This document shows, piece after piece, positions 23,902 through 48,204 of a stretch of DNA of 64,000 nt. Numbering within the stretch: position 1 is the first letter of the stretch; every line of letters begins with the position of its first letter. Both the position numbers and the translations under genes were made by a program. Source of the stretch: Candidatus Kaiserbacteria bacterium (GTDB lineage: Bacteria > Patescibacteriota > Minisyncoccia > Phycocordibacterales > UBA918); NCBI GenBank assembly GCA_016204695.1, contig JACQKD010000001.1:68976-132975 (forward strand), written 5' to 3'. Under the pieces are notes generated by a model. The model was not told where the DNA came from. It made no database searches and was given only the letters and a program-made list of their open reading frames with translations.

Positions 23902-24329
23902 ATGAAGTCACATACATCTCGAAAACATAAACACGTTTTTCTCCGAATGAGGCGCCATTCCGATGCCTCAATTGTCACGTCGTGATTCCCAACACCACTT
24001 GGGGTACCATGCATCGTAATCACTGCCCACTGTGTCTTTGGTGCAAACATGTCGATCTGAAGATGCCCGGAGATCGTCGTTCTCTATGCCAGGGAAGAAT
24101 GAAACCGATCGGGTTGACGCGTAAGTCCAAGGGCGAACTGATGGTTGTGCACCAATGCCTGAAGTGCGGCAAATTGTCTCCTAATCGAATTGCCGGTGAC
24201 GATAATTGTGACGTGCTGTTGTCTTTGCTTGAAGAGCCGATCCAGCGAAGACGCATCACGATGATACCTTTGGCGGATCGCGATCAGGTACTGACAGCGT
24301 TATTCGGGTACGACCACCCGGATATTTAA
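23902..24329 (+). pseudogene. RNHCP-domain zinc-ribbon protein gene broken by a 1-nt frameshift at a T5 run (23936-23940); a sequencing indel, a programmed frameshift or a true pseudogene
   Basis: The downstream frame reads GTMHRNHCPLCLWCKHVD (the RNHCP motif). The first CxxC (RCLNC) lies upstream in the same frame in a stretch with no start codon. An ATG-initiated 27-codon ORF (MKSHTSRKHKHVF...) in the +1 frame overlaps at the T5 run; adding one T fuses them into a single 142-aa protein. Confidence 0.6.
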
Positions 24330-24334
24330 CCGAT

Positions 24335-24365
24335 AAAAAGTCCCACCCTACGGTGGGACTTTTTG
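24335..24365. terminator. Bidirectional rho-independent terminator after the RNHCP gene
   Basis: aaaaa-gtcccacc-ctac-ggtgggac-ttttt. Confidence 0.6.
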
Positions 24366-24425
24366 GCTCCATATGTTGCACAAAGTGAACGTGTCTGGTG
24401 TAAGCGATAAGTATGCTTTACTTGC

Positions 24426-25073
24426 CTATAGTGCGTCGAAAAACTGCTTGAGCTGTGTACCGACGGCGCGCATGCCTTTCTCGGTGAGGTGACAGCCGTC
24501 GTCGAGTACTTCCTCTGGCGCATGCGGAGCGAGCGTTGGTCCCGCATGCACATCGCCTTGCGCCGCAAGCTCGCGGACGAGCTCCTCACCGCGCGCGAGG
24601 CCCTCCGTGCCGGTGATCCTGCATACACCTGTCTGGTACGACGGTAAGGCGGAGACGTAAATTTCGACTCCCGGAATCCGGCCCTTGATACCTGCAATGA
24701 CCTTTTGCGCGTCGGCAAGGGTCGGCGTGTCGTCGCGCGGCACGCACAACTGCCACCAGATGACGCGAGTATTGGGATGTGCGCCGAGGTAGCGGTCGAA
24801 GGTATGCCAGAAGTCATTGTCGATATTCGCCCATTCTCTCACCGTGCCGCTGTCGAAGTCATGTTTGCGGTCGTCTGTCAGTTGCCAGAGGTCGTCTCCT
24901 CCCGCCATGTGGTAGCCCATCACCGATTGGGCTGTATTCGAACAGCCGATAAATCCGATGGTTGCGTCCGCGTTCGTTTCAAGAGGTTCGGGTGCGCGGT
25001 CTTTCCACAGATAACAGACCGCAAAACCCGCCGCAAATGCAAGAGGAATCAAGAGTATCCACAGATGTCTCAT
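24426..25073 (-). CDS. Hypothetical secreted protein (possible SGNH/GDSL-like hydrolase fold)
   Basis: Start at MRHLWILLIPLAFAAGFA (signal anchor, ATG 25073); IGFIGCSNT block near the N-terminus; GC-rich like the core genome. Confidence 0.45.
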   Translation of the reverse strand: MRHLWILLIPLAFAAGFAVCYLWKDRAPEPLETNADATIGFIGCSNTAQSVMGYHMAGGDDLWQLTDDRKHDFDSGTVREWANIDNDFWHTFDRYLGAHPNTRVIWWQLCVPRDDTPTLADAQKVIAGIKGRIPGVEIYVSALPSYQTGVCRITGTEGLARGEELVRELAAQGDVHAGPTLAPHAPEEVLDDGCHLTEKGMRAVGTQLKQFFDAL

Positions 25074-25152
25074 TGTCTCCACTATACACCGACCTTCGGT
25101 ATTCCGGTGGCATATCAGTGTATGGAATCTTGATAATGTATTATAGATAAAA

Positions 25153-26178
25153 ATGGATAGAAAAGTGCTAAAAATTCTTTTAGGGGTGGTGGCCGTCGTT
25201 GTGGTGAGCACAATTGTTTTCGCTAACATAAAACAAATAGACGATACAGAAACATTAACAGGAGGGATTGAGCAAACCACCACGGCGCCAGCTTCAAGTA
25301 TTGCGACAAATTCTAATCCGACAGAAGACAGTACAGAAAATTCAGAAGAATCTGAAATAGTTAAAAAAGAAACAATTGCGCAAAATGTTACGAGCGTGGA
25401 CACTGTAACGGCAAGCGAATCGGAATCCACGGAAGTACAGACTACGAAAAGGAGTGAAAGTATAGAAAATACTAATTGGTGGAAACCCCATCCAAATACA
25501 TCGTGGCAATGGCAACTGACGGGAACACTAAATCAAAACTATGCCGTTGATATGTATGACGTGGACTTATTTGATAATTCAAAAAAAGCGATACGTGCAT
25601 TGCAAACCAAAGGCATCAAGGTCATTTGCTATTTCAGTGCCGGAAGTTATGAAGATTGGAGAATCGACAAGGGTGATTTTCCAAATAAGGTCAAGGGAGA
25701 CACTCTTGAAGGATGGGCAAATGAGAGATGGCTTGATATTTCCAAAATTGACCTACTTGCACCGATTATGGAGAGCAGATTGGATTTGGCGGTAGAAAAA
25801 GGGTGTGATGGTGTTGAGCCGGATAATGTGGACGGTTATCTGAACGACACCGGACTTGCTTTGACTTATCAAGACCAATTGACATATAACAAATGGCTTG
25901 CGGGAGAGGCACACAAAAAGGGATTGGCTATTGGTTTGAAAAATGATCTCGAGCAAATTCCCGAACTGGTTGATTATTTTGATTTTGCGTTAAATGAACA
26001 ATGTTTTGAATATGATGAATGCGAAACGCTTTTGCCATTCATTGAGCAAAACAAAGCGGTGTTTGGAGTAGAATATGAATTACACACAAAGAAATTTTGC
26101 AACGAGGCAATCAAGTTGAACTTCGATTGGTTGAAGATGGAATACGACTTGGATGGCGGAAGAATCTCTTGCAGGTAG
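25153..26178 (+). CDS. Glycoside hydrolase family 114 (endo-alpha-1,4-polygalactosaminidase-like), membrane-anchored or secreted
   Basis: N-terminal TM anchor, acidic linker, then a GH114 TIM-barrel with the characteristic WQWQL motif and the FSAGSYEDWR / VEPDNVDGY segments. Confidence 0.7.
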   Translation: MDRKVLKILLGVVAVVVVSTIVFANIKQIDDTETLTGGIEQTTTAPASSIATNSNPTEDSTENSEESEIVKKETIAQNVTSVDTVTASESESTEVQTTKRSESIENTNWWKPHPNTSWQWQLTGTLNQNYAVDMYDVDLFDNSKKAIRALQTKGIKVICYFSAGSYEDWRIDKGDFPNKVKGDTLEGWANERWLDISKIDLLAPIMESRLDLAVEKGCDGVEPDNVDGYLNDTGLALTYQDQLTYNKWLAGEAHKKGLAIGLKNDLEQIPELVDYFDFALNEQCFEYDECETLLPFIEQNKAVFGVEYELHTKKFCNEAIKLNFDWLKMEYDLDGGRISCR

Positions 26179-26226
26179 TTTAAATTTGGCTCCCGAATTA
26201 AAACCTTCGCAAACCGTTGGAATTAT

Positions 26227-26913
26227 TTATAGAGCTATTTTCTGAGTTTGCGGAGATTTGAGAAAATCATTTATTTTATAAGTCATTTCTATGGTAACGA
26301 AAGGGGGTTTCTCTTGTGGAGCAAATAGTGGAGGTCTATTTTGCGCATCATTCAGTCTAACCGATGCTAAAACGAATTCATAAGGAGTTTCAGGCCTTAA
26401 ACTTTCACAAACCAATCTGTAAGTAGATACAATTCTAGTATTGCGTATAGGTATAATAGGTACGCTTTCTCCTTCTGTAGTTTCAAATGCGATTGCAGTG
26501 GTGGTCTGGTCTACTGGATAAAAGTCACAGCAAGGCATATCAATTACTTTGCCAACTCCAGCAATAAGATGGGGATTTTCGAATGTTATCCTCGAGTCAA
26601 AATCAGTTATTGTTTCGTTGCCATTGTTAATCAGAGTAAGTCGCGTCTCTGTCATGAATGTATTCCAATGGATACCGAAATACTCTCTTGTATAAGTGCT
26701 TGATGTGGCATATATCTCTATAACCACTGAATTCACTGGAGGGTGTATCCAATTTTTGATGTGTTTGAAAATACTGGGGTAATCGCGTAAAAAAGTCAGT
26801 AGAGAACAGATGGCAATAACCCCCATTAATACTGTTCCCAAGACTCCTCCCCCGAATGTTATTTTAAGGACTATAACTGCAATCAGTACAACAAATATCA
26901 TCGTGCTTATCAT
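26227..26913 (-). CDS. Hypothetical membrane-anchored protein (two N-terminal TM helices plus an extracytoplasmic domain)
   Basis: Low GC; no known family recognised. Confidence 0.45.
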   Translation of the reverse strand: MISTMIFVVLIAVIVLKITFGGGVLGTVLMGVIAICSLLTFLRDYPSIFKHIKNWIHPPVNSVVIEIYATSSTYTREYFGIHWNTFMTETRLTLINNGNETITDFDSRITFENPHLIAGVGKVIDMPCCDFYPVDQTTTAIAFETTEGESVPIIPIRNTRIVSTYRLVCESLRPETPYEFVLASVRLNDAQNRPPLFAPQEKPPFVTIEMTYKINDFLKSPQTQKIAL

Positions 26914-27047
26914 CTTGGCTCCCTACGTTGGACGAGTTCAGAACTATCAAATGGGACGAGTTTTTCAGAGAGGCAGAGTGGTTATCGGTCGCCGTGCCTA
27001 ACCTTGGCAATCTTGTTTCGGCATGAAAATAGCATATACTCCAATGT

Positions 27048-27554
27048 GTGCTGAACATACTCCATTTTGTCACTCCAGTTATTTTGTCGTTTGGCATTCT
27101 CATTACCATGTATTCCAAACTCATACTTGCTTTTGCTGTTGGGGCTATTGGCTCGGCCGCTTACATCACTGCACTTTATTTCAAGTTTATAGGTGAGACA
27201 GACGACCACAGGAGAATCATAATGATGCCGTTTCAGAACCTTGAGGGTATGTTGGACGGGACAACCATCAGAAAAATGAGTGTATCAAAATGTTTTTGGT
27301 ATTGTGTAGTGGGCGGTTGCATTGCTGTTATATTCCAATTTGATGTTCCTAATTTTGTCGCTGTACAGAGTTTGATACTTGGAGCGACATGGCCGGCGAT
27401 TGTGTCCCAGTTTCTGTCTGGCAGGATGGCAAGTCCTACATCTAGTGAGCTAGATTTGTTGAGAAGAGCGAGCTCCCCACTGTCTGTTGGAACTTCCTCT
27501 TTGGCAGAGCGTATAAGGAAAATAAAGGAACAAAGCAAACATGACAATCAATGA
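27048..27554 (+). CDS. Hypothetical polytopic small membrane protein (about 4 TM)
   Basis: 168 aa, hydrophobic helices, C-terminal polar tail; the stop overlaps the next gene's start by 14 nt. Confidence 0.45.
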   Translation: MLNILHFVTPVILSFGILITMYSKLILAFAVGAIGSAAYITALYFKFIGETDDHRRIIMMPFQNLEGMLDGTTIRKMSVSKCFWYCVVGGCIAVIFQFDVPNFVAVQSLILGATWPAIVSQFLSGRMASPTSSELDLLRRASSPLSVGTSSLAERIRKIKEQSKHDNQ

Positions 27555-27996
27555 ATTACTAAAAAAGCCGATTGAGATAATGTTAGAAAATAATGTCTCT
27601 GACGACATCGTTCAACCAAGCGATGTAGTTTCAAAATTACTTGAAAGGGTAGCGAGATTTTCTGACCAATCGGCCCTTGACTTTTTGATTGTTTATGCAG
27701 ACAAGGTGGACGGAAATTACTCAGCAAAAGCAGTAATCACACATAAGGAATTATCGGCACTTTTGGATTTAGTACAAGCACCAAACAATGCGGAAAAAAC
27801 CGTTCAGGAACTTGATTTAGAGGCTAAGTTTCCACTTAGATACTGGCTACATAAAAACGACCCCATTGAAAAAGCATACAATTTGTTTAAGGCAGACCTG
27901 ACCGATACCATAATCATCCTTGATGAGAAAGAAATATATGTTGGGAAAGTCAAACGGAATCCTTTTGTGGAGCGACTAAAAATACTACTTTCTTAG
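27541..27996 (+). CDS. Hypothetical soluble protein, translationally coupled to the upstream membrane protein
   Basis: 151 aa with no recognised motif; in an operon with 27048 and 28036. Confidence 0.45.
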   Translation: MTINELLKKPIEIMLENNVSDDIVQPSDVVSKLLERVARFSDQSALDFLIVYADKVDGNYSAKAVITHKELSALLDLVQAPNNAEKTVQELDLEAKFPLRYWLHKNDPIEKAYNLFKADLTDTIIILDEKEIYVGKVKRNPFVERLKILLS

Positions 27997-28035
27997 TGTC
28001 TTTGCTTTTCTTTACTCTGTAAAGTAAAGTAAAGC

Positions 28036-28824
28036 GTGATGGGTAGTACTCTCACGCAATCGGCACAACAAACTCTCAAGTTTTTTGAGGAGTTTATTAG
28101 GAGAAAAGAGGTTGCTGATTTTATTAAGAAATATAGGGCATATCTCAACTTACCTCCGAGTGGTCTATCTCTCACTAAAGAGGATGAGAGGGAACTGAAA
28201 GAAGGTGTACTACCACATTTGTATATTCCAACAAGAGCCAGAGAAGCATATCCAAAAGATGAAAAAGAGAAACCGTTTAGGGTAGTAAACACCTGTCTGG
28301 CTTTTACGGGGCAACAAGGAGTCAAACTATGGAGTGTAGGGTTGATGCTATTGCATTACCTATTTTTTAATAGAATTACCGCTATACCAGTCAACTTTTT
28401 AGGTACCAATAGAGACGACTTGCTTCGGTTGGAGTATTTGCCAGACGAGCTTTTATGGTTTGATAATGAGGACCACTTTCTTCTCAAATGTATGTACGAA
28501 CATTTTGATGAGGTAAGCAAGACACATCCGGTTGTTTTATACATAAACCCCGAAGTATCCCAGCGACAAATACAGGATTTCCTTGCTAAAAATTGGGCGG
28601 AGATTGAGCAGTACAGAAAGGATGTAAAAAGCCCCATTACCGGTCCGAGAAAGAAAAATAAGCGCACACAGGAGCGCAATGATTTCATTTATGAGCACCG
28701 ACAACTGCCGAGAAAGGAGATAATGCATCTCCTCTATGATAAATATGGAGCCGAGCTTGATATTGATTACGGATACATCGGCAAGATAATCTCGTTGGAA
28801 AAAAAGAGGCGTGAAAAGAAGTGA
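28036..28824 (+). CDS. Hypothetical protein with a basic C-terminal tail (possible nucleic-acid binding)
   Basis: 262 aa; C-terminal KKNKRTQERN...EKKRREKK is basic; no recognised family. Confidence 0.45.
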   Translation: MMGSTLTQSAQQTLKFFEEFIRRKEVADFIKKYRAYLNLPPSGLSLTKEDERELKEGVLPHLYIPTRAREAYPKDEKEKPFRVVNTCLAFTGQQGVKLWSVGLMLLHYLFFNRITAIPVNFLGTNRDDLLRLEYLPDELLWFDNEDHFLLKCMYEHFDEVSKTHPVVLYINPEVSQRQIQDFLAKNWAEIEQYRKDVKSPITGPRKKNKRTQERNDFIYEHRQLPRKEIMHLLYDKYGAELDIDYGYIGKIISLEKKRREKK

Positions 28825-28848
28825 TTGCGGATACTTTCCGCAATCACT
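28821..28848. terminator. Hairpin gtgattgcgg-N8-ccgcaatcac overlapping the stop of the 28036 gene (terminator or origin structure)
   Basis: Perfect 10-bp inverted repeat. Confidence 0.45.
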
Positions 28849-28881
28849 TATGTCTTATACAGACAGTTTTCTGACGGATAA

Positions 28882-28907
28882 CCTGTAGTCGCACGCTACA
28901 GGTTTTT
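28882..28907 (+). terminator. Rho-independent terminator cctgtag-tcgcacg-ctacagg-ttttt
   Basis: 7-bp stem followed by T5. Confidence 0.6.
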
Positions 28908-29088
28908 ATGTTTTCAGAGCCAGAAAACGAGTACAAAACGATAAGCCAAGACACCGATATTGTCCGGCGGGTTTTTGATGACTTTGAGGCACGGAGCAAC
29001 TTTGTTGGCTTCTTTGACCTTGCGTTCAAAGTTGCAAAGCGAAACCCGACGCTGTGGGCGGATATTAGCGGACAAGCACAACCACGCC

Positions 29089-30219
29089 ATGATTGATACT
29101 GTCATCCTCTCTGTTCCAAGAGATAAAGTAATTACGCTTGACGAAACGGCGCGCGGGGTTGCGCCGTGGGACCTGCACGAACGGACGCAGTCCTATAGCG
29201 TCTATGTGAAAAATCCGTCAAGCAAGGACAAGGCAACGGGTCTGTCTTTTCCGCGTCTTACTGGCTGGCGCAGAAGAAACTATGGCGGCATAGGAGGATG
29301 GACATCAGTCCTAAAGATTGAGTTTTCTGTCGCAAAACTCCTCTATAAAAACAATGTGGACGAATTAGAGGATGGGCAATTTGCGCTCGTGGTTGATACT
29401 CTATTGGACCGATTGGACCGGATGGGTGTGCGAATACAGAGGCAGGATATTGAACTGGCAGAGGTACGCGCCGTGCATTACGCGAAAAACATTGAACTTA
29501 CCAGTGGGTACACCTCGCTCTATGCGCTTGGCGAGCTTGGAAAGGTGAATATCACTAAACGATTGGACATGACGAAAACGCGGTTTGTAAACGATGGCGA
29601 GAGTTTGTGCTTTTACGCCAAGTCGCACTCGGTCGTACTGTATGACAAGATAGCCGACTTGCGGAAAAACCAAAAACGGGCGGTAGACCTTGAGCAAACG
29701 GCGTACCAGATGAGTTTGTTTCCCTCACTCAACAATGTGCGCGAGATTTTGCGTCTTGAGGTCCGGTTGAGCGAAAAACGAAAAATGAGCAGTGTCTTTC
29801 AGAAGCTCGGTATACCAGAAAACCCGACTTTCAAGGATGTGTTCTGTGCCAAGAAAAGCCAGATGGTAGTGCGGCACTACTGGGATACGATGATTGAGGG
29901 CAACAGCTTACTCCTGTTCTCGCATTCGCTCACAGCAAAAGACCTGCTCAAGCAAATACTTATCGCACGACCAGACGCAAAGGCGACAAAGCCCATTTAT
30001 CTTGCCGGTCTCGTGCTTCTCGCCCGCGAGGGCAACGGCTTGCGCGAACTGCGGACAATTCTTGCGAAGCGAAGCAATGACCGGCTATGGTATCGGTTAC
30101 GGACTGACCTTGCGGACACAACGGCTGGGCTGGACAGATTGCGACCGCGTGAGTGGTATGACCAAGTGAAAGGGGCACTGGAGAGTTATCAACCTGTGCA
30201 TTTGCACTGTAAAGAATAG
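29089..30219 (+). CDS. Rolling-circle replication initiator, Rep_trans family (pT181 RepC-like)
   Basis: The segment SVVLYDKIADLRKNQK...ILRLEVRLSEKRK matches the Rep_trans active-site region (RIYNK...WRVEIELKR). Start set at MIDTVILSVPRD (29089); the longer ORF starts at 28960. Confidence 0.6.
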   Translation: MIDTVILSVPRDKVITLDETARGVAPWDLHERTQSYSVYVKNPSSKDKATGLSFPRLTGWRRRNYGGIGGWTSVLKIEFSVAKLLYKNNVDELEDGQFALVVDTLLDRLDRMGVRIQRQDIELAEVRAVHYAKNIELTSGYTSLYALGELGKVNITKRLDMTKTRFVNDGESLCFYAKSHSVVLYDKIADLRKNQKRAVDLEQTAYQMSLFPSLNNVREILRLEVRLSEKRKMSSVFQKLGIPENPTFKDVFCAKKSQMVVRHYWDTMIEGNSLLLFSHSLTAKDLLKQILIARPDAKATKPIYLAGLVLLAREGNGLRELRTILAKRSNDRLWYRLRTDLADTTAGLDRLRPREWYDQVKGALESYQPVHLHCKE

Positions 30220-30228
30220 TCAAGTATT

Positions 30229-30438
30229 ATGAGGGATGTAAACATGGTGCAAAGTATGAAAAAATCAAACAAGGAGTTTTATACGGCCCAAGAACTTGCC
30301 GACAAGCTGTCACTCAATGTGATGACCATTTATCGGTACATAGATAGGGGCACACTGAAAGCGTACAAAATTGGCAAGGAGTTTCGGATTGAGAAAGACG
30401 AGTTTGAGAAGTTTCTGAATAAGGCAAAAATAAAATAA
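30229..30438 (+). CDS. Excisionase-family helix-turn-helix DNA-binding protein (candidate recombination directionality factor or regulator)
   Basis: YTAQELADKLSLNVMTIYRYIDRGTLKAYKIGKEFRIEKDEFEKFL matches the excisionase-family HTH consensus. Confidence 0.6.
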   Translation: MRDVNMVQSMKKSNKEFYTAQELADKLSLNVMTIYRYIDRGTLKAYKIGKEFRIEKDEFEKFLNKAKIK

Positions 30439-30441
30439 TTT

Positions 30442-31989
30442 ATGGCATCACTCAATTTCAAAGGAAAGTCGGCGGTTTGGAACCATCACTTATCGGTCCC
30501 GTATCACACGCTTGACTTAGACGTAAAAAAGTCCCGCAAGGGCGCGGACAGCGACGAGAACCTTATCATCCACGGAGACAATTTGCTTGCGCTCAAGGCC
30601 CTATTACCCAAATACCAAGGCCGTATAAAGTGCATCTACATTGACCCGCCTTACAACACTGGGAACGAGAACTGGGTGTATAACGACAAGGTAAACAGTC
30701 CGCTTATCAAAGAGTGGCTAGGCAAGACAGTCGCCAAAGACGACCTCACCAAACATGACAAGTGGCTCTGCATGATGACTCCGCGTCTCAAGCTCCTGCG
30801 GGACCTACTTGCCGATGATGGCGTGATTTTTGTGAGCATTGACGATAACGAGCAAGCACACTTGAAAAATCTAATGGATGAAATTTTTGACGAGGGCAAC
30901 TTTATTGGTGAGTTAATTCACCAAAGGGCAAAGGGTGGTGGTCAAGCGAAACAAGTTGTAAAAGGGCATGATTATATCTGTGCCTACGCAAAAAACATTG
31001 ATAGTGGAATAGTTTTAAGGAGAGCCAAAGTTATCCAACAGGATGTTGTGGAAATAGATGGAAAGGAGTATTTGCGCGACGACGATGTTGTAAGAAAACA
31101 GTTTGGTAAATACGACAAATCTCTCGGAGACAGAAGGTGTTTTTATGAGGAATTAGAGAAATATAAGGGACCAACCAAGAAAAAAGAAATTGACGAAAAA
31201 ATAAAGACCGGCGAACTGGTTTTAGAAAAACATCGGAATGGCATGCGTCTGATTGTGAGGTACACATTATTAGACGAAACATCATCAAAGTTATACTCAA
31301 TAATCAAGGTGCTTTCCGAAGACGGAAAAGATGATTTAGCAGACTTGGGTATCCAAGGGTTTAATTATCCAAAACCAGTTGAACTAATTAGACAACTTAT
31401 TCAGTCCGTCATTCTCAACTCCAACACTAAAAATGAAATTATTTTAGATTCTTTTGCTGGTTCCGGCACCACCGCTCATGCGGTCATCAACCTCAATAAA
31501 GAGGATGGCGGCAACCGGAAGTTTATTTTAGTTGAGATGGAGGACTATGCCGACAAAATAACCGCAGAGCGCGTCCGGCGCGTGATTAAAAAAGACAAGC
31601 TCAAGACCGGCTTCTCGTTCTACAACCTCGGACCGGCCATTGATGCCGAAACGATATTGACTGGTAAGCTCCCAACCTACGAACAATTTGCCAAGTATGT
31701 GTTTTATCTTGCTACTGGCAAGAATCTGAAAGACGAAAAGAAAATAAAAGAGAAAGAGTATTTTGTTGGTAAAGATGGCAACGAGACAATCTACCTGCTC
31801 TACAAACAGGACCCAGAAGCCCTAAAAACGCTCGCCATTACGCTGGACTGGGCGCAGATGGCCCATGGTAAGCACGCCGATAAGAAAATCGTTTACGCGC
31901 CCGCGTGCTACTTGGACGAGGAATCGCTGGATAAGTTCAATATCCAGTTCGTAAGCATTCCCTATAACCTCTTTGAAAAGACAACCTAA
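30442..31989 (+). CDS. Type III restriction-modification system methyltransferase (Mod), N6-adenine, beta-class
   Basis: Motif IV IYIDPPYNTGN comes before motif I DSFAGSGTTAHA (beta-class order). The gene sits directly upstream of the res gene. Confidence 0.85.
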   Translation: MASLNFKGKSAVWNHHLSVPYHTLDLDVKKSRKGADSDENLIIHGDNLLALKALLPKYQGRIKCIYIDPPYNTGNENWVYNDKVNSPLIKEWLGKTVAKDDLTKHDKWLCMMTPRLKLLRDLLADDGVIFVSIDDNEQAHLKNLMDEIFDEGNFIGELIHQRAKGGGQAKQVVKGHDYICAYAKNIDSGIVLRRAKVIQQDVVEIDGKEYLRDDDVVRKQFGKYDKSLGDRRCFYEELEKYKGPTKKKEIDEKIKTGELVLEKHRNGMRLIVRYTLLDETSSKLYSIIKVLSEDGKDDLADLGIQGFNYPKPVELIRQLIQSVILNSNTKNEIILDSFAGSGTTAHAVINLNKEDGGNRKFILVEMEDYADKITAERVRRVIKKDKLKTGFSFYNLGPAIDAETILTGKLPTYEQFAKYVFYLATGKNLKDEKKIKEKEYFVGKDGNETIYLLYKQDPEALKTLAITLDWAQMAHGKHADKKIVYAPACYLDEESLDKFNIQFVSIPYNLFEKTT

Positions 31990-31991
31990 CT

Positions 31992-34478
31992 ATGCTCAAG
32001 GACTATCAAGTGGATGTGGTCAACAAGGTCAAGGACTTTTTCGATACGCTAGATACCAAGCGCGCGACATTTGAAAATCTGCCAAACGACATAAAAGCCA
32101 GTCTTGGTACTGACTACTTATCGTTTGCATTTACCGGTACTCCCTACGCACAATTTGCGGACCGGCCGCGTTCGGGCGCAGGCGCGCTCTACCCGCGCGT
32201 GTGCATCAAAATGCCGACCGGCGGCGGCAAGACATTGATAGCGATTGAAACCATCCGCGCCTATCAAAACATTTTCGCAAAGCGCAAAACCGGTCTCGTG
32301 GTCTGGATAACACACCGCGAGCAAATATACCGCCAGACGATTGAAAACTTGCAAAACAAGAGCCATATCTACCGACAACTTTTGGACCAAGCGAGCGGCA
32401 ACCGCACCATCATCCTTGAGAAAGGCCAGCCGATACGCGAGCAGGATGTACGGGAAAACCTTGTTGTGCTAATGCTGATGATTCAATCGGCCGCCAGAGA
32501 CACGAATAAAATCTTTGAGGATAGCGGCGGATACACGGACTTTTTTCCTACGGATAATCGCTATGACTTACATAAAAAATTGATTGAGGCCGTTCCGAAC
32601 CTTGATAAAACACCGGAGAGCTTGTGGGACCAGATGCAAGTGAAAACGAGCTTGGGCAATGTGGTACGCACGCTCTCTCCGCTCATCATCGTGGACGAGT
32701 TTCATACTATGTTTACCGACAATGCACGGGCAACACTGGACGGACTCAATCCGAGCGTGATTGTCGGGCTGTCGGCGACTCCGAAGCGAGAAATGAATCT
32801 GCTCGTCAATATAACTGGCCAGCAGTTGAAAGCCGCAGAAATGATAAAGCTAGACATGCACCTCTTTGCGCCAACGCAAAACGGCGATTGGCGAGGGATG
32901 CTGGCGGGTATCAAGCAAAAGCGCGACCAGCTTGAGCGCAAGGCGCGGAAACTAGAACAGAACCAAGGCGCGTACATCCGACCGATTGCGCTTATCCAAG
33001 TGGAGCGCACCGGCCGAGACCAACGAGGGCGGGGATTGGTCCATAGCGAAGATGTCCGTGAGCATCTGGTGAGCTTGGGCGTACCGAGGCACGAGATAGC
33101 AGTCAAATCAAGCTCGTTGGACGAGATAAAACAGCAGAAGCTCCTCTCCAAAGAGAGCGAGGTGCGATATATCATCACGAGAGAGGCATTAAAAGAGGGT
33201 TGGGACTGCTCATTTGCCTACATTCTCGGCGTGATACCGAACGCGCGCAATAATTCGTCCATGACGCAACTAGTCGGTCGTGTTCTGCGCCAACCCTACG
33301 CGAAGAAAACCGGCGTTGCCGAACTAGACGAGAGTTACATCTACTTTGCGAGCGGACACACGCAGGAAGCGTTGGAGCGAGTGAAAAAGGGTTTTGACGA
33401 GGAAGGGTTAGGTGATGTCTCCGGCGGCATCCAAACGCTAGATAAGCGAGGACAAGTCGTGTCTGCGCCACGGGTAGTAAGAATCAAAAAAGATATTCTC
33501 AAGGATTATCCAGAATCGCTCTTTTTGCCGGTGTGGTTGATGAAACAGGGCACGACATATCGCCGCTTTGTGTATGAGGTTGATATAAAACCTGCTATTC
33601 GTTGGCAAGATGTCGTGCTTGAGGATTGGATGTCGCACATCATGCCATCCATCGGAACGACCCGCAGACGACAGACAGAAGTGATAGTAGGGCTGGAACC
33701 CGAAACGACAGCTCGGCAGTCAGAAGTGGACGAGGCCACAACCTTTGATGTGTTGTATCTGGCACGCCGACTCTACGAGACGATTGAAAATGCGTTTATT
33801 GCTTATGACATGGCCGCACAAGTGGTTGCCGCCTTGAGTGGACAGGTATCACAAGAATGGCTGGACCGAGATGCCGGATATATTGCGAGAGAGCTGGAAA
33901 TGCACCTCTTGACGCATCGCAAGACGGCAGAAAACACGATATTCAGTGAGCTGATGGAAAGCGGGCAGTTATGCCTTGCTGTGTCGGATGATGATGATTT
34001 GGGATTCACTATGCCGCGTACCGATGTAGTTGAAAACAATATCCGCTCGGCCTACGGCCTGACGCTGTACGAAGATGTTGATGTCGGCTCACTCAATCTG
34101 CTAGAACGAGAAGTGGCGCGCATTATTGAGGCCAGCCCGAAAGTGCTTTGGTGGGCGCGCAATAAGGTAGCGAGGGAATGGTATGCGATACAGGGCTGGC
34201 AGAGGGGCAAAGTGCGGCCGGACTTTATCATTGCGCGGAAAGATAAGAATGACGAGCTTGAGTTTGTGTATGTGGTTGAGAGCAAGGGCGAGCATTTGAT
34301 TGGCAACGCGGACACACAGTACAAGGACGAGGTTTTTGAACGGATGAATAACATGCGGGGTAAGATTAAAAAGTTACTGTTTCGCACCACGACAGTCCGG
34401 CTCAACGACCGTTTCGAGTTTGAGTTATTGCCGCAAAACGAGGAGGAGTTGCGATTACGCACTAAATTGAATGCATAA
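31992..34478 (+). CDS. Type III restriction endonuclease (Res): SF2 helicase-like ATPase with a C-terminal PD-(D/E)xK nuclease
   Basis: Walker A CIKMPTGGGKTLIA, DEAH-like IIVDEFHTM, motif III GLSATP, and C-terminal PDFIIARKD...EFVYVVESKGEH. Confidence 0.85.
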   Translation: MLKDYQVDVVNKVKDFFDTLDTKRATFENLPNDIKASLGTDYLSFAFTGTPYAQFADRPRSGAGALYPRVCIKMPTGGGKTLIAIETIRAYQNIFAKRKTGLVVWITHREQIYRQTIENLQNKSHIYRQLLDQASGNRTIILEKGQPIREQDVRENLVVLMLMIQSAARDTNKIFEDSGGYTDFFPTDNRYDLHKKLIEAVPNLDKTPESLWDQMQVKTSLGNVVRTLSPLIIVDEFHTMFTDNARATLDGLNPSVIVGLSATPKREMNLLVNITGQQLKAAEMIKLDMHLFAPTQNGDWRGMLAGIKQKRDQLERKARKLEQNQGAYIRPIALIQVERTGRDQRGRGLVHSEDVREHLVSLGVPRHEIAVKSSSLDEIKQQKLLSKESEVRYIITREALKEGWDCSFAYILGVIPNARNNSSMTQLVGRVLRQPYAKKTGVAELDESYIYFASGHTQEALERVKKGFDEEGLGDVSGGIQTLDKRGQVVSAPRVVRIKKDILKDYPESLFLPVWLMKQGTTYRRFVYEVDIKPAIRWQDVVLEDWMSHIMPSIGTTRRRQTEVIVGLEPETTARQSEVDEATTFDVLYLARRLYETIENAFIAYDMAAQVVAALSGQVSQEWLDRDAGYIARELEMHLLTHRKTAENTIFSELMESGQLCLAVSDDDDLGFTMPRTDVVENNIRSAYGLTLYEDVDVGSLNLLEREVARIIEASPKVLWWARNKVAREWYAIQGWQRGKVRPDFIIARKDKNDELEFVYVVESKGEHLIGNADTQYKDEVFERMNNMRGKIKKLLFRTTTVRLNDRFEFELLPQNEEELRLRTKLNA

Positions 34479-36009
34479 CAACACTATGAAAGCAGTCATT
34501 TTAGCGAGAGTATCAACCGAGGAGCAGAAAGATGCGGGCAATTCTCTGCCAGCGCAGATTGAGCGTATAAAGGCGTATTGTGCGCGCAGGGGGCTTGAGG
34601 TAGCGGAGACATTTAGCTTTGACGAGAGTGCGTATAAAACAAAACGGGACGAGTTTGATAAAATCCTCTCTTTTGTAAACGAGTCAAAAGAGAAAATCGC
34701 CATTTGTTTTGACAAGGTAGACCGGTTGTCCCGCAACATCTTTGATAAGCGGGTTGCCCTGTTGTACGAAAAAGCAGTTGCCGATGAGATAGAGTTACAC
34801 TTTGTCTCGGATGGGCAAGTCATCAATAATGCGATGAATGCGGGCGACAAGTTTCGTTTTGGAATGCAACTCGGGCTTTCCAAATACTACTCGGACGCGA
34901 TTAGCGACAATGTGAAGCGGGCGTTTGAGCAGAAGCGGCGCAACGGCGAGTGGACTGGTCCGGTGCGTATTGGGTACAAAAATGTCTCGCTGGATAGCGA
35001 GAAGCGATTGCGGAAAGACATTATGCTTGACCCAGAGCGCGCGCCCTTGGTGAAGAAACTTTTTGAGCTTTACGCTATGGGTAATGATTCCATTACGACC
35101 TTGTGGCGCAAGATAACCGAGATGGGCCTTAAAAGTCCGAACGGCAATATGCTCGCGCGGAGCAATGTTGAGCTGATACTCAAGGACTCGTTCTATTACG
35201 GCACGGCTCACTCGCACAGATATGGACTCTACGAGCATCGCTACCCGCGTCTTATTTCAAGAGAACTATTTGAGAAGTGTCAAGAAGTGCGCCTTGGCAG
35301 GAGCTGGAAACGGTCAAAACTTGCCTCTGCGATGGAGTACATTTTCAAGGGATTGCTTACCTGCAAACGCTGTGGCTGTTTGATGACACCAGAAATAAAG
35401 AAGGGCAAGTTTATCTATTACTCGTGCACAAACGCCAAGGGGATATGTAAACGGCTCTATGTGCCGGAAAAAACGCTCCTAGAGCGCGTCCATGCTATTT
35501 TTAGCGATTTTGAAAGTATCCCGAGAGATGTGCAGGAACGGCTAGTTGACGAACTCCGCGCGCTCAATGAGAGCGAGAAGGACTATCATAATAAGCAACT
35601 GGTACGAGTGAGAGCTGAATACGACCGCGTGCAGAAGCGAGTCAATGCTCTGTTGGATATGCGTTTGGACCAGAGTATTACCCACGCCGACTATGACAAA
35701 AAACTACAAGAGCTCAAAGATGAGCAGTACCATTTGGACATAGAAGCCGAGGAGTATACCAAGGCCGACCACGAGTACCATATCCATGTAGGTACTGTGT
35801 TCAACCTTGCCCGCCGTATGAAAGACATTTTTGAGAGTTCTGAAATTGTGGAAAAACGCGCCTTTCTCAACTTCCTACTTCAGAACCCGACCGTATCGGG
35901 CAAAAACCTAGAGTTTACCTTGCGAAAACCTTTCAATCTGATACATGAACTCGCTCTCAATCCTAACTGGCTCCGCGGGCTGGATTCGAACCAGCGACCA
36001 ACGCTTTAA
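34471..36009 (+). CDS. Large serine recombinase/integrase (resolvase domain + recombinase domain + zinc ribbon + coiled coil)
   Basis: Catalytic Ser context AVILARVSTEEQ, then DKVDRLSRN, the recombinase domain, zinc ribbon CKRCGC...YYSCTNAKGIC and a coiled coil. The last 42 nt lie inside tRNA-Asn. Confidence 0.85.
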   Translation: MHNNTMKAVILARVSTEEQKDAGNSLPAQIERIKAYCARRGLEVAETFSFDESAYKTKRDEFDKILSFVNESKEKIAICFDKVDRLSRNIFDKRVALLYEKAVADEIELHFVSDGQVINNAMNAGDKFRFGMQLGLSKYYSDAISDNVKRAFEQKRRNGEWTGPVRIGYKNVSLDSEKRLRKDIMLDPERAPLVKKLFELYAMGNDSITTLWRKITEMGLKSPNGNMLARSNVELILKDSFYYGTAHSHRYGLYEHRYPRLISRELFEKCQEVRLGRSWKRSKLASAMEYIFKGLLTCKRCGCLMTPEIKKGKFIYYSCTNAKGICKRLYVPEKTLLERVHAIFSDFESIPRDVQERLVDELRALNESEKDYHNKQLVRVRAEYDRVQKRVNALLDMRLDQSITHADYDKKLQELKDEQYHLDIEAEEYTKADHEYHIHVGTVFNLARRMKDIFESSEIVEKRAFLNFLLQNPTVSGKNLEFTLRKPFNLIHELALNPNWLRGLDSNQRPTL

Positions 36010-36042
36010 CAGAGCGCCGCTCTACCACTGAGCTACCGCGGA
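35968..36042 (-). tRNA. tRNA-Asn (anticodon GUU)
   Basis: I folded it by hand. The 7-bp acceptor stem TCCGCGG/CCGCGGA, the D arm GCTC-AGTGGTA-GAGC, the anticodon stem-loop GCGCT-CUGUUAA-AGCGT (GUU) and the T arm GCTGG-TTCGAAT-CCAGC are all present, with discriminator G and an encoded CCA; 75 nt. Confidence 0.9.
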
Positions 36043-45405: not shown

Positions 45406-45425
45406 AAAAGCGAAAGAGAGTAGCC

Positions 45426-48194: not shown

Positions 48195-48204
48195 TAGTCA
48201 CGAC

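What the first reader, a model, noticed from the sequence alone, without database searches (positions are those of the whole stretch)
25075..36042. Roughly 11-kb low-GC integrative element at tRNA-Asn carrying a serine recombinase, a rolling-circle Rep, Type III R-M and unknown cargo
By eye, GC content falls sharply from the flanking core genes (about 60-65 %) to about 40-50 % between roughly 25.1 and 36.0 kb. The right end is a tRNA-Asn(GUU) gene, and the large serine recombinase ORF terminates inside the tRNA's 3' half. The segment combines a recombinase, an excisionase-family HTH protein and a Rep_trans rolling-circle initiator with upstream hairpins. That combination is what integrative mobilisable elements and integrated rolling-circle plasmids look like. 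The Type III mod/res pair, a GH114 hydrolase and four genes of unknown function would be its cargo. Small-genome uncultivated bacteria have few characterised mobile elements, so an intact serine-integrase element with a rolling-circle module here would be worth describing.
Basis: partly seen in the sequence, partly recalled or inferred. Interest (0 to 1): 0.8.

Follow-up and report, generated by a model that had tools for sequence, protein, structure and literature searches.

The report
tRNA-targeting serine-integrase element carrying restriction-modification
A 9-kb mobile DNA element sits at the very end of a tRNA-Asn gene in a Candidatus Kaiserbacteria genome; it belongs to a large, apparently undescribed family found across these tiny uncultivated bacteria, uses a serine integrase whose own tail is rewritten by integration, and ferries restriction-modification defence genes.

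Summary
GC falls from 0.556 to 0.454 across 25.08-35.97 kb. The unit defined by recombination is only 26916-35974 (9,052 bp between the two cores). It is flanked by a 7-bp repeat, TGGCTCC, which is the antisense of the tRNA-Asn 3' end GGAGCCA. GH114 and an ORFan lie outside it.

The integrase ORF crosses the crossover site. Its native 36-codon tail (WLPTLDEFRT...) now lies at the far left end. Joining the ends rebuilds a 45-bp attP with inverted-repeat arms and a 535-aa integrase.

In 80 related loci from candidate-phyla-radiation (CPR) bacteria:
- 67 show the integrase ending antisense in a tRNA, mostly Asn.
- 28 have the same tail peptide 5.5-11 kb upstream.
- Two relatives assemble as probable circles with the long-form integrase.

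Excision of this copy, the Rep origin, the transfer route and any role for the tail swap are all inferred. Papers from 2015 and 2020 state that serine integrases were not known to target tRNA genes.

Verdict: new variant of a known kind; interest 0.65.

The parts
26916..26922 (+). attL core TGGCTCC, the displaced original 3' end of the tRNA gene (antisense of GGAGCCA)
   Evidence: It is an exact 7-bp repeat of 35968-35974. Cores of 6-11 nt containing GCTC(C) flank most of the 28 related elements.
26916..27026 (+). P' arm of attP and the displaced 36-codon C-terminal tail of the integrase (WLPTLDEFRTIKWDEFFREAEWLSVAVPNLGNLVSA, then stop). It includes the inverted-repeat arm CGAGTTC at 26933-26939.
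   Evidence: A motif scan found it. tblastn of the tails of long-form integrases P0033, P0082 and P0065 hits 26883-26999 at E 2.9e-6, 8.8e-6 and 1.9e-4. The same peptide, always 26-43 codons before a stop, sits at the left end of 28 related elements. The codon-position pattern indicates coding constraint.
27048..27554 (+). 168-aa multi-pass membrane protein, function unknown (variable left module)
   Evidence: ORF. No hit in Pfam, PHROGs, NCBIfam or PADLOC. Hydrophobic segments seen.
27541..27996 (+). 151-aa soluble protein, function unknown
   Evidence: ORF. No family hit.
28036..28824 (+). 262-aa 'pre-Rep' protein (cluster c3), function unknown
   Evidence: It occupies the same position in 11 of 29 elements. 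Profile searches against PDB and Pfam found nothing.
28880..28904 (+). Conserved stem-loop AACCTGTAG-N7-CTACAGGTT followed by a T-run, directly before the small ORF. It is a candidate terminator or Rep origin. A second hairpin lies at 28819-28849.
   Evidence: Terminator-like scan. The same hairpin sits at the same place in relatives. In 16 hand-picked relatives, 4 of 9 pairs show compensatory changes.
28908..29096 (+). 62-aa small ORF whose stop overlaps the Rep start; a conserved core gene of unknown function
   Evidence: An ORF ending at the Rep start was found in 22 of 28 elements. Most are homologous 41-65-aa ORFs with the motif NLVGFF..L.K.DKR.NP. It was also called as a gene in Logan contig L081.
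29089..30219 (+). Rep: 376-aa protein with an N-terminal Rep_trans-like fold and a C-terminal helical domain; putative rolling-circle initiator or relaxase
30229..30438 (+). HTH_17 / excisionase-family DNA-binding protein (69 aa; Logan aa starting at 30244)
   Evidence: PF12728 1.3e-13. TIGR01764 4.8e-13. PADLOC mad1 2.3e-10. Present in 25 of 29 elements and 47 of 52 loci.
30442..31989 (+). Type III R-M methyltransferase (Mod), cargo
   Evidence: PF01555 6.1e-34. PADLOC MTase_III 3.6e-124, full length.
31992..34478 (+). Type III R-M restriction subunit (Res), cargo
   Evidence: ResIII 1e-16. PADLOC REase_III 2.2e-136.
34486..36009 (+). Large serine recombinase, integrated-state form (507 aa from the conserved MKAVILARVS start; 512 aa from the upstream ATG at 34471). 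Its last residues ...RGLDSNQRPTL are encoded by the antisense of the tRNA. The P arm of attP lies at 35923-35967, with GAACTCG at 35947-35953.
   Evidence: Pfam Resolvase, Recombinase and Zn_ribbon_recom. phrog_95 integrase 1.3e-70. The catalytic R-V-S motif is invariant in alignment A1. More than 2,000 homologs were found, the 120 best at 60-75% identity.
35968..35974 (+). attR core TGGCTCC; the crossover lies within it
35968..36042 (-). tRNA-Asn(GTT), the integration target (the attB B' arm is its acceptor and T arm)
   Evidence: ARAGORN. 41 related loci show the same arrangement at tRNA-Asn.
25075..26915 (.). NOT part of the element: a low-GC segment (0.38-0.40) holding GH114 (25153-26178, +) and an ORFan membrane protein (26227-26913, -), with a third TGGCTCC at 26187-26193
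   Evidence: Composition. GH114 8.5e-88. The ORFan matches only itself among 5.8 billion proteins. No integrase remnant was found. Logan contigs break at 26186-26214.

Best explanation
Window 26916-35974 is an intact 9.05-kb integrative element inserted into the last 7 nt (GGAGCCA) of the tRNA-Asn gene of a Candidatus Kaiserbacteria genome. It was inserted by its own large serine recombinase.

Shown:
- The two ends carry the same 7-bp core.
- The integrase ORF runs across the right-hand core into the tRNA.
- The continuation of that ORF, 36 codons then a stop, lies just inside the left-hand core.
- Joining the ends gives a 45-bp attP (GAACTCG-N14-TGGCTCC-N10-CGAGTTC) and a 535-aa integrase.
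- The same architecture recurs in dozens of CPR genomes at tRNA genes, and relatives exist as circle-like contigs.

Inferred life cycle:
1. The integrase, possibly helped by the HTH_17 protein as directionality factor, recombines attL with attR. This releases a circle and restores the long-form integrase.
2. The Rep_trans-fold protein nicks an origin, possibly the conserved hairpin at 28880-28904 upstream of the small ORF. It then drives rolling-circle replication, or acts as a MobT-like relaxase.
3. The long-form integrase recombines attP with the 3' end of a tRNA-Asn gene. The tRNA stays intact because only its last bases are exchanged for identical ones.
4. The Type III Mod-Res pair in the cargo slot between the HTH gene and the integrase defends the host. 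By post-segregational killing it could also stabilise the element.

Integration replaces the integrase's 36-aa tail with tRNA-antisense-encoded residues. This may act as a built-in sensor of the integrated versus free state (speculative). The route of cell-to-cell transfer is unknown.
For: - Boundaries: TGGCTCC occurs at 26916 and 35968. The displaced tail peptide matches the tails of long-form integrases (E down to 2.9e-6). The reconstructed attP is collinear with the contiguous junctions in L083 and L084, for example ctacgttggacgagttcagaac against ccacgttggacaagttcagaac.
- Targeting: 51 of 80 loci have an ARAGORN tRNA overlapping the integrase end (41 Asn, 6 Gln, 2 Asp, 1 His, 1 Tyr). 67 of 80 do when a T-arm antisense motif is also counted. 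Six loci that ARAGORN called negative have a tRNA interrupted by a group I intron.
- Tail: 28 loci carry the tail peptide 5.5-11 kb upstream. Codon-position diversity is 0.38, 0.28 and 0.52. The other two frames are closed in 19 of 26 and 26 of 26 sequences.
- Free forms: L083 (7,836 bp) has a 30-nt terminal overlap and a Rep ORF continuous across the join. L084 has a 541-aa ORF continuous across the join. Eighteen JGI metagenome contigs carry a contiguous P-core-P' junction, including L098, where it is followed by Rep.
- Core genes: Rep is upstream in 48 of 52 loci and the HTH gene in 47 of 52; gene order is conserved.
- Cargo: full-length Type III Mod and Res. Across 29 elements the slot holds 12 N6_N4, 11 C5, 4 D12 and 3 N6 methyltransferase hits, 6 ResIII hits and many type II endonucleases.
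- Intactness: all core ORFs are open, the catalytic motif is kept, and genes from 28908 to 36009 are co-directional with gaps of 10 nt or less.
- Foreign composition.
Against: - No empty attB or excised attP of this particular element was found. An exact-match scan of JGI metagenomes gave nothing, and Logan contigs from three runs show only the occupied state or break at the junctions.
- The 7-mer alone is not significant: 5 copies in the window against 6.5 expected.
- Rep has no significant sequence match to Rep_trans, to PDB sequences, or to phage or plasmid records. Its catalytic tyrosine and origin are unassigned.
- No transfer, capsid or relaxase-accessory genes were detected.
- Circularity of L083 and L084 could also arise from tandem copies.
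- The AlphaFold2 model of a long-form integrase gives the tail low confidence (pLDDT about 50-58), so nothing supports a regulatory role structurally.
- HTH_17 proteins are not typical directionality factors for serine integrases (my own knowledge).
Confidence: 0.75

Rival explanations
1. One reading: the mobile unit is the whole 11-kb low-GC block, 25075-36042, with GH114, the ORFan and the other unknown genes as cargo.
For: Low GC (0.38-0.40) continues to 25075, where there is a sharp step to the host gene. A third TGGCTCC lies at 26187, and Logan contigs break at 26186-26214. This hints at structural heterogeneity or an older junction there.
Against: The integrase's displaced tail and P' arm start at 26916, not 25075. 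Nothing near 25075-25150 or 26187 resembles a P' arm. Related elements are 5.5-11 kb measured from the tail peptide, and none carries GH114. No integrase remnant lies in 24000-26915.
Confidence: 0.08
2. It is the provirus of a small rolling-circle (ssDNA, inovirus-like or similar) virus of CPR bacteria. Rep is the viral initiator, and the left-module membrane and small proteins are virion or morphogenesis proteins.
For: The size (6-11 kb), a Rep_trans or gene-II-like initiator, a multi-pass membrane protein and small unknown ORFs would fit. Foldseek against BFVD finds five unnamed viral proteins of similar length (326-394 aa) at E 1.3e-9 to 7.2e-4.
Against: No PHROG or Pfam hit to any capsid, Zot/pI-type ATPase or other virion gene. 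The left module is not conserved between elements. Rep has no relative in IMG/VR or in INPHARED phages. The only constant cargo is R-M.
Confidence: 0.1
3. It is a fixed, no longer mobile island. The recombinase and Rep are relics, or have been recruited for another role, and the R-M system is simply a chromosomal defence locus.
For: Only the integrated state is seen for this copy. Its GC (0.466) is much higher than that of most relatives (0.26-0.40), suggesting long residence in or adaptation to a high-GC host.
Against: All core ORFs, the 36-codon tail ORF, the perfect 7-bp cores and the perfect 7-nt inverted repeats of the reconstructed attP are intact. The closest relatives are only 75-76% identical, so the family is diverse and occupies many different hosts and flanks.
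Confidence: 0.1
4. Rep is not a replication initiator but a MobT-type relaxase, so the element is an integrative mobilisable element that hitch-hikes on a host or helper DNA-translocation machine. This is compatible with the best explanation apart from the role of Rep.
For: Rep_trans-related proteins serve as relaxases and as replication initiators in Tn916, ICEBs1 and many streptococcal IMEs (PMC5704250). A DUF87/HerA ATPase with a weak TrwB-like match lies 9.4 kb away, at 45426-48194.
Against: No coupling protein or oriT was identified in the element. The nearby ATPase was not followed up. Conjugation systems are rarely reported in CPR bacteria (my own knowledge).
Confidence: 0.2

Closest known systems
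Integrative and mobilisable elements (IMEs) of Firmicutes that combine an integrase with a Rep_trans/MobT rolling-circle protein (review PMC5704250)
   Same: They are small integrated elements of about 5-15 kb with an integration/excision module, a Rep_trans-type protein and a few cargo genes. Elements that use serine recombinases are flanked by very short repeats. Some carry R-M or toxin-antitoxin cargo.
   Different: The host is CPR/Patescibacteria. The Rep is too divergent to hit PF02486. Per that review, the studied site-specific serine-recombinase IMEs disrupt dispensable protein-coding genes such as rumA, whereas this one uses a tRNA 3' end. attP lies inside the integrase ORF. No relaxase-accessory gene or helper is known.
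Actinomycete integrative and conjugative elements such as pSAM2, SLP1 and pMEA300 (PMC2440964)
   Same: They are 10-17-kb elements integrated in tRNA genes with int, xis and a rolling-circle rep. The excised circle replicates.
   Different: Those elements use tyrosine integrases, leave long tRNA-derived repeats and carry an FtsK-like Tra protein for dsDNA conjugation. None of these features is present here.
Phage Mx8 IntP/IntX and SSV-type integrases, whose genes extend across attP (PMC4383910, PMC6070905)
   Same: The attachment site lies inside the integrase coding sequence, so integration creates a recombinant gene with a new 3' end. Per PMC6070905, the Mx8 integrase is not inactivated by this event but its specificity changes. 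tRNA genes are typical targets (my own knowledge).
   Different: Those are tyrosine recombinases. Here the enzyme is a large serine recombinase, and only the last 36 codons are exchanged.
Tycheposons of Prochlorococcus (bioRxiv 10.1101/2020.12.28.424599)
   Same: They are cargo-carrying, site-specific elements at tRNA genes in streamlined genomes. New arrivals push older ones inward, forming tandem arrays, and the islands contain extra non-element DNA.
   Different: Of 937 elements, 910 use tyrosine recombinases. Their replication modules are primases, helicases and polymerases, and their cargo is mostly nutrient-acquisition genes rather than R-M.
Phage-type large serine integrases (phiC31, Bxb1, A118, SPbeta)
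   Same: They share the Resolvase, Recombinase and zinc-ribbon (with coiled-coil) architecture, att sites of about 40-50 bp with imperfect inverted repeats, and a minimal common core.
   Different: The known targets are protein-coding genes or intergenic sites. Use of tRNA genes by serine integrases was described as not known (PMC4383910, 2015). In 2020 it was called unreported and in need of proof, at 14 of 297 computational cases (PMC7192596).

Membership tests
Large serine recombinase (serine integrase) | N-terminal resolvase catalytic domain with the serine nucleophile | tested here: met
   PF00239 1e-21. R13-V14-S15 are invariant in a 20-sequence alignment.
Large serine recombinase (serine integrase) | Recombinase domain plus zinc ribbon with an embedded coiled coil | tested here: met
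   PF07508 4.9e-14 and PF13408 2.4e-8. Long helices at residues 343-447 in the AlphaFold2 model of homolog P0065.
Large serine recombinase (serine integrase) | Short att sites with imperfect dyad symmetry and only a few shared bases at the crossover | tested here: met
   A 7-bp shared core. The reconstructed attP is GAACTCG-N31-CGAGTTC. Cores are 6-11 nt in relatives.
Large serine recombinase (serine integrase) | Catalyses attP x attB integration, and excision with a directionality factor | not testable with these tools
   This needs recombination assays. The only indirect support is circle-like relatives and occupied tRNAs in many hosts.
Rep_trans (PF02486) rolling-circle initiators / MobT relaxases | Significant match to the family profile | tested here: not met
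   No hit for the window protein even at E=10. Three of 28 relatives hit at E of 0.0013 or worse. A profile search against PDB sequences found nothing.
Rep_trans (PF02486) rolling-circle initiators / MobT relaxases | Rep_trans fold | tested here: met
Rep_trans (PF02486) rolling-circle initiators / MobT relaxases | Catalytic tyrosine and a cognate nick site or origin | tested here: inconclusive
   An invariant Y185-D186-K187 motif is present. It resembles the (I)Y(N/D)K active-site motif that I recall for RepC/RepD, but no residue-level structural alignment was available. The conserved hairpin upstream is only a candidate origin.
Type III restriction-modification system | Adjacent mod (N6/N4 methyltransferase) and res (helicase-nuclease) genes | tested here: met
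   PADLOC MTase_III 3.6e-124 (residues 1-510 on profile positions 1-539 of 542) and REase_III 2.2e-136. The genes are 2 nt apart.
Excisionase / recombination directionality factor | Excisionase-type HTH (HTH_17 / TIGR01764) | tested here: met
   PF12728 1.3e-13. TIGR01764 4.8e-13, above its cut-off.
Excisionase / recombination directionality factor | Stimulates excision by the cognate integrase | not testable with these tools
   The only indirect evidence is conserved linkage with the integrase in 47 of 52 loci. A role as controller of the adjacent R-M genes is equally possible; the protein hits PADLOC mad1 at 2.3e-10.
Integrative conjugative element / AICE | Own DNA-transfer machinery (type IV secretion system, or FtsK-like Tra) | tested here: not met
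   No such domain was found in any element ORF by Pfam, PHROGs, NCBIfam or PADLOC.
Inovirus-like provirus | Zot/pI-type morphogenesis ATPase and coat proteins | tested here: not met
   No hit in Pfam or PHROGs. Rep has no relative in IMG/VR.
Genomic island at a tRNA (general) | Compositional discontinuity, a tRNA boundary and an integrase at the edge | tested here: met

The most novel reading that the evidence does not exclude
A whole clade of large serine integrases, spread across the Candidate Phyla Radiation, has specialised on the extreme 3' end of tRNA genes, which was thought to be the province of tyrosine integrases. It has placed attP inside its own coding sequence. The free element therefore makes a long-form enzyme with a conserved tail of about 35 aa, and the integrated element makes a form whose tail is tRNA-antisense-encoded or truncated. 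This tail swap would act as a built-in switch of recombination direction or activity. The family would be the main vehicle moving restriction-modification systems between CPR bacteria, which are reported to be largely devoid of CRISPR-Cas (my own knowledge).
Probability: 0.35. Interest if true: 0.8.

Novelty: new variant of a known kind. Interest (0 to 1): 0.65.

Why it matters
Few mobile elements have been characterised in CPR/Patescibacteria, and these bacteria are reported to rely mainly on restriction-modification for defence (my own knowledge). This locus gives a precisely delimited, apparently intact member of a family present in at least 265 of about 185,000 species-representative genomes and in more than 2,000 protein clusters. 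The family has predicted attP and attB sites that can be tested directly.

It supplies systematic evidence that serine integrases can target tRNA genes. The Islander and TIGER papers called this unknown or unproven. It also offers a serine-integrase counterpart to the Mx8 and SSV cases in which the integrase gene spans attP.

On the practical side, a 45-bp attP paired with a highly conserved tRNA attB could become a genetic tool for organisms that currently have very few such tools. The constant R-M cargo slot is a natural model for how defence genes move in streamlined genomes.

Tried and rejected
None exists, because the repeat is only 7 bp and lies at 26916.
- Exact look-up of the integrase protein in public assemblies found nothing on record, because the gene is cut at contig ends.
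- Sequence-level identification of Rep failed with Pfam at E=10, a profile against PDB sequences, and tblastn against INPHARED phages and PLSDB plasmids. Only the fold search worked.
- I searched IMG/VR with a Rep profile and found no relatives.
- I tried to find an empty site through homologs of the 228-aa ORF left of attL. It is an ORFan.
- An exact-match scan of JGI metagenomes for this element's core plus P' arm found nothing.
- I looked for a decayed integrase or element genes in 24000-26915, to test whether GH114 and the ORFan are a relic of the same family. Nothing scored below E=0.01.
- Profile searches for the 262-aa pre-Rep protein found nothing.
- AlphaFold2 on a long-form integrase, to see where the tail docks, gave the tail low confidence, so no conclusion is possible.
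- A simple dyad-symmetry scan could not pin the crossover dinucleotide within TGGCTCC. Family comparison narrows it to GCTC.
- I rejected the reading that 'type-c' integrase tails mark a non-tRNA target. They occur where a second element sits between the integrase and the tRNA (L049, L044, L016) or in circle-like contigs.


Full report
**1. Checking the observation**

A sliding GC profile shows a clear trough. One-kb windows outside 25075-35974 average 0.556 (sd 0.027, minimum 0.492). Windows inside average 0.454 (0.385-0.525). Tetranucleotide distance to the rest of the window is 0.034 for 26916-35974, against at most 0.009 for host 9-kb chunks. The flanks are therefore about 55% GC, not 60-65%, but the discontinuity is real.

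ARAGORN finds a single tRNA in the window: tRNA-Asn(GTT) at 35968-36042 on the minus strand. The ORF at 34471-36009 stops 42 nt inside it.

Most of the proposed HMM tests succeed:
- Pfam supports Resolvase (1e-21), Recombinase (4.9e-14) and Zn_ribbon_recom.
- Pfam also supports HTH_17 (1.3e-13), N6_N4_Mtase (6.1e-34), ResIII (1e-16) and GH114 (8.5e-88).
- PADLOC models match Mod and Res over essentially their full lengths as Type III enzymes (3.6e-124 and 2.2e-136).

The one proposed test that fails is PF02486. The 'Rep' has no Pfam hit even at E=10 and only a weak PHROG 'replication protein' hit (1e-4).

**2. Where the element really ends**

No repeat of the tRNA 3' half exists near 25075. 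The lead came from homologs of the integrase.

More than 2,000 proteins match it. Those that carry a source name are from Patescibacteria, and the 120 best are 60-75% identical. They share a C-terminus ...LELAxxPNWLRG, after which three kinds of tail follow:
- a stop codon;
- xDSNxxPxx, which is the antisense reading of a tRNA T-arm;
- a longer tail, xxD(K/E)FRTxNW....

In the window, TGG-CTC-CGC-GGG (W-L-R-G) is the antisense of CCA, the discriminator base and the acceptor strand.

Scanning the window for the third kind of tail found it once on the plus strand, at 26916: WLPTLDEFRTIKWDEFFREAEWLSVAVPNLGNLVSA, then a stop. tblastn with the tails of the long-form integrases P0033, P0082 and P0065 hits 26883-26999 at E 2.9e-6, 8.8e-6 and 1.9e-4. 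Nothing else in 24000-27000 scores below 0.01.

The DNA at both places shares exactly TGGCTCC, at 26916-26922 and 35968-35974. Joining the right end to the left end gives ...GAACTCG ctctcaatcctaac TGGCTCC ctacgttgga CGAGTTC.... This is a 45-bp site with perfect 7-nt inverted-repeat arms, as expected for a serine-integrase attP, and it completes a 535-aa integrase ORF. The reciprocal join gives an intact tRNA-Asn followed by the start of the 228-aa ORF.

The element is therefore 26916-35974, with 9,052 bp between the two cores. GH114 and the ORFan lie outside it.

**3. Family evidence that this is a mobile unit**

A profile scan of one genome per species returned 265 loci. The 80 best were fetched, and nearly all are CPR metagenome-assembled genomes.

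tRNA targeting across those 80 loci:
- In 51 loci ARAGORN finds a minus-strand tRNA whose 3' end overlaps the integrase stop: 41 Asn, 6 Gln, 2 Asp, 1 His and 1 Tyr.
- Counting a T-arm antisense motif as well gives 67 of 80.
- Six ARAGORN-negative loci have a tRNA interrupted by a group I intron.
- Seven loci have the long tail instead. Two of these (L049, L044), and also L016, carry a second, distant serine recombinase further downstream; in L049 it lies next to the tRNA. These are tandem arrays.

The displaced tail:
- In 28 loci the tail peptide (consensus WLPLVDKFRTANWxxIKSDLxFSGILGLFPxLxLQN, then a stop) lies 5.5-11 kb upstream of the integrase stop. It is always 26-43 codons long.
- Pairwise diversity by codon position is 0.38, 0.28 and 0.52.
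- The other two frames contain stops in 19 of 26 and 26 of 26 sequences.
- The tail is therefore conserved as protein, not only as a DNA site.
- attL and attR share 6-11 nt containing GCTC(C) in most elements.

Free forms:
- Logan contig L083 (7,836 bp) has a 30-nt terminal overlap, a Rep ORF continuous across the join and a 553-aa long-form integrase.
- ENA contig L084 (6,537 bp) has a 541-aa cargo ORF continuous across the join.
- Their P-core-P' junctions are collinear with the window's reconstructed attP.
- A degenerate P-core-P' pattern also found 18 JGI metagenome contigs, including L098, where the junction is followed by Rep.
- Tandem copies could mimic circles, so these are strong but not conclusive evidence for excised forms.

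**4. Anatomy and cargo**

I clustered the ORFs of 29 delimited elements. The order, from left to right, is:
- a variable left module, often on the minus strand;
- a 'pre-Rep' gene (cluster c3 in 11 elements, including the window's 262-aa protein);
- a conserved hairpin followed by a T-run;
- a 41-65-aa ORF overlapping the Rep start;
- Rep, in 29 of 29 elements;
- an HTH_17 gene, in 25 of 29;
- a cargo slot;
- the integrase.

Among loci with at least 6 kb upstream of the integrase, 48 of 52 have Rep and 47 of 52 have the HTH gene on the same strand.

The 58 cargo-slot proteins of at least 150 aa are dominated by restriction-modification:

| Pfam family | Proteins hit |
|---|---|
| N6_N4_Mtase | 12 |
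| C-5 DNA_methylase | 11 |
| ResIII | 6 |
| MethyltransfD12 | 4 |
| N6_Mtase | 3 |

The slot also holds type II endonucleases (HaeII, HpaII, HindIII, AlwI, TdeIII, MvaI/BcnI, BpuJI), Mrr and HNH nucleases, and a single D-Ala-D-Ala ligase. The window's copy carries a complete Type III pair.

In the window, genes from 28908 to 36009 are co-directional with gaps of 10 nt or less. That fits a single operon, although no transcript data exist.

**5. The Rep**

Sequence methods fail. An AlphaFold2 model built on 39 homologs is confident (pLDDT 87.6, pTM 0.83).

An invariant YDK motif (Y185) is my candidate for the active-site tyrosine. This rests on my recollection of the RepC/RepD motif and was not tested.

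The hairpin at 28880-28904 recurs at the same position in relatives. In 16 hand-picked sequences, 4 of its 9 pairs show compensatory changes. It may be a terminator or the origin.

Foldseek against viral models finds five unnamed proteins of similar length (E 1.3e-9 to 7.2e-4). This keeps a viral ancestry for Rep open.

**6. Most likely mechanism**

Shown:
- the integrated architecture and its precise junctions;
- family-wide tRNA targeting;
- the split integrase ORF;
- the conserved Rep, HTH and integrase trio;
- the R-M cargo slot;
- circle-like relatives.

Inferred:
- The integrase excises the element, perhaps aided by the HTH_17 protein. That protein could instead control the adjacent R-M genes, since it hits PADLOC mad1 at 2.3e-10.
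- Rep replicates or mobilises the circle.
- The long-form integrase inserts the circle into the last bases of a tRNA gene without damaging it.
- The R-M cargo defends the host and stabilises the element.

That the tail exchange modulates activity or direction is a hypothesis. It is based on the Mx8 IntP/IntX precedent, where integration creates a new 3' end of int and alters the enzyme's specificity (PMC6070905; Tojo et al. 1996, as cited in PMC4383910). The AlphaFold2 model of a long-form integrase is uninformative for the tail.

No transfer machinery was found.

**7. Comparison with what is known**

Functionally the element resembles several known kinds:
- IMEs that pair an integrase with a Rep_trans/MobT protein (PMC5704250);
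- actinomycete elements such as pSAM2 (PMC2440964);
- tycheposons, in its tandem accretion at tRNA genes (bioRxiv 10.1101/2020.12.28.424599).

It differs from them in four ways:
- its host clade;
- its use of a serine integrase at a tRNA;
- attP lying inside the integrase ORF;
- a cargo slot dedicated to R-M.

[quoted passage not shown] Seven full-text searches found no description of this family. The library omits most subscription journals, so prior description cannot be excluded.

**8. Source and unresolved points**

The Rep is 100% identical to NCBI protein HY416_00460 of a Candidatus Kaiserbacteria bacterium, on a 140,686-bp contig.

Logan contigs from three runs reproduce the integrated state. 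They break at 26186-26214 and at 35972-35999. This may reflect k-mers shared with other genomes or structural heterogeneity, and I could not tell which.

The low-GC segment 25075-26915 (GH114 plus the ORFan) remains unexplained. It has a third TGGCTCC at 26187 that reads W-L-P-N-stop. The 7-mer is not rare, with 5 copies observed against 6.5 expected, and no integrase remnant is present.

**9. Verdict**

The finding is real and more interesting than stated in one respect: the split integrase, the tRNA targeting and the family-wide R-M shuttle. It is wrong in its left boundary and in the HMM basis for Rep. It is a new variant of a known kind. Interest is 0.65. Confidence in the integrative-element model with the stated boundaries is 0.75.

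Noticed in passing
L042 3646-3902; L057 11526-11742; L046 2782-2997; L064 7139-7428; L017 11549-11790; L036 6464-6734: The tRNA genes targeted by related integrases are interrupted by group I introns (Rfam RF00028, 55-94 bits). ARAGORN therefore reports no tRNA at these loci. The integrase tails still read through the T-arm antisense.
   Followed up: partly
window 26187-26193 and 26186-26214: A third TGGCTCC lies 9 nt after the GH114 stop and reads W-L-P-N-stop in the plus frame. Logan contigs L089 and L081 end and start here with a 29-nt overlap, so this 29-mer has more than one context in the sample. It may be a relic junction or chance.
   Followed up: partly
window 25075-26915: This low-GC (0.38-0.40) segment outside the element holds a GH114 glycoside hydrolase with an N-terminal hydrophobic segment. 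It also holds a 228-aa membrane ORFan whose start codon lies 2 nt from the original tRNA 3' end. Its origin is unknown.
   Followed up: partly
L090, L093, L095, L100, L101, L102, L104, L107 (JGI metagenome contigs): These contigs carry solitary fragments of the integrase gene. Each fragment begins at the same residue, ITKD.YDKK (about residue 403), and continues through the attP-type junction into the full tail. No upstream integrase is present. In L107 the fragment is fused in frame behind an unrelated N-terminal sequence that, from memory, resembles a phage small terminase subunit. The recurrent breakpoint suggests a site-specific event or a module boundary.
   Followed up: partly
L049 18113-19555, L044 15115-15996, L016 20607-21500: A second, distant large serine recombinase (26-30% identical) lies downstream of the first element. 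In L049 it ends about 100 nt before tRNA-Asn. This indicates tandem arrays of two element families at one tRNA.
   Followed up: partly
window 44302-49737: A 922-aa DUF87/HerA-type P-loop ATPase with a weak TrwB-like match (45426-48194) is flanked by unknown ORFs. GC dips to 0.49-0.52 and AT skew is strong at 44.0-45.5 kb. This may be a DNA-translocation module 9.4 kb from the element.
   Followed up: no
L033, L061, L063, L064, L065, L049 (between Rep and HTH): Short ORFs or fragments (50-258 aa) similar to parts of the integrase lie between Rep and the HTH gene in several elements. They suggest past element-into-element insertions or recombination.
   Followed up: no
L008, L016, L039, L069, L070, L034, L038, L053: Genome records carrying this CPR-type element are labelled Gammaproteobacteria, Alphaproteobacteria, Bdellovibrionales, Pacearchaeota or Neomarinimicrobiota. 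These are probably mislabelled or contaminated bins.
   Followed up: no
cargo slot of one related element (alignment A6): One cargo slot contains a D-Ala-D-Ala ligase (Dala_Dala_lig_C, 4.4e-72). It is the only clear non-R-M cargo among the 58 proteins scanned.
   Followed up: no
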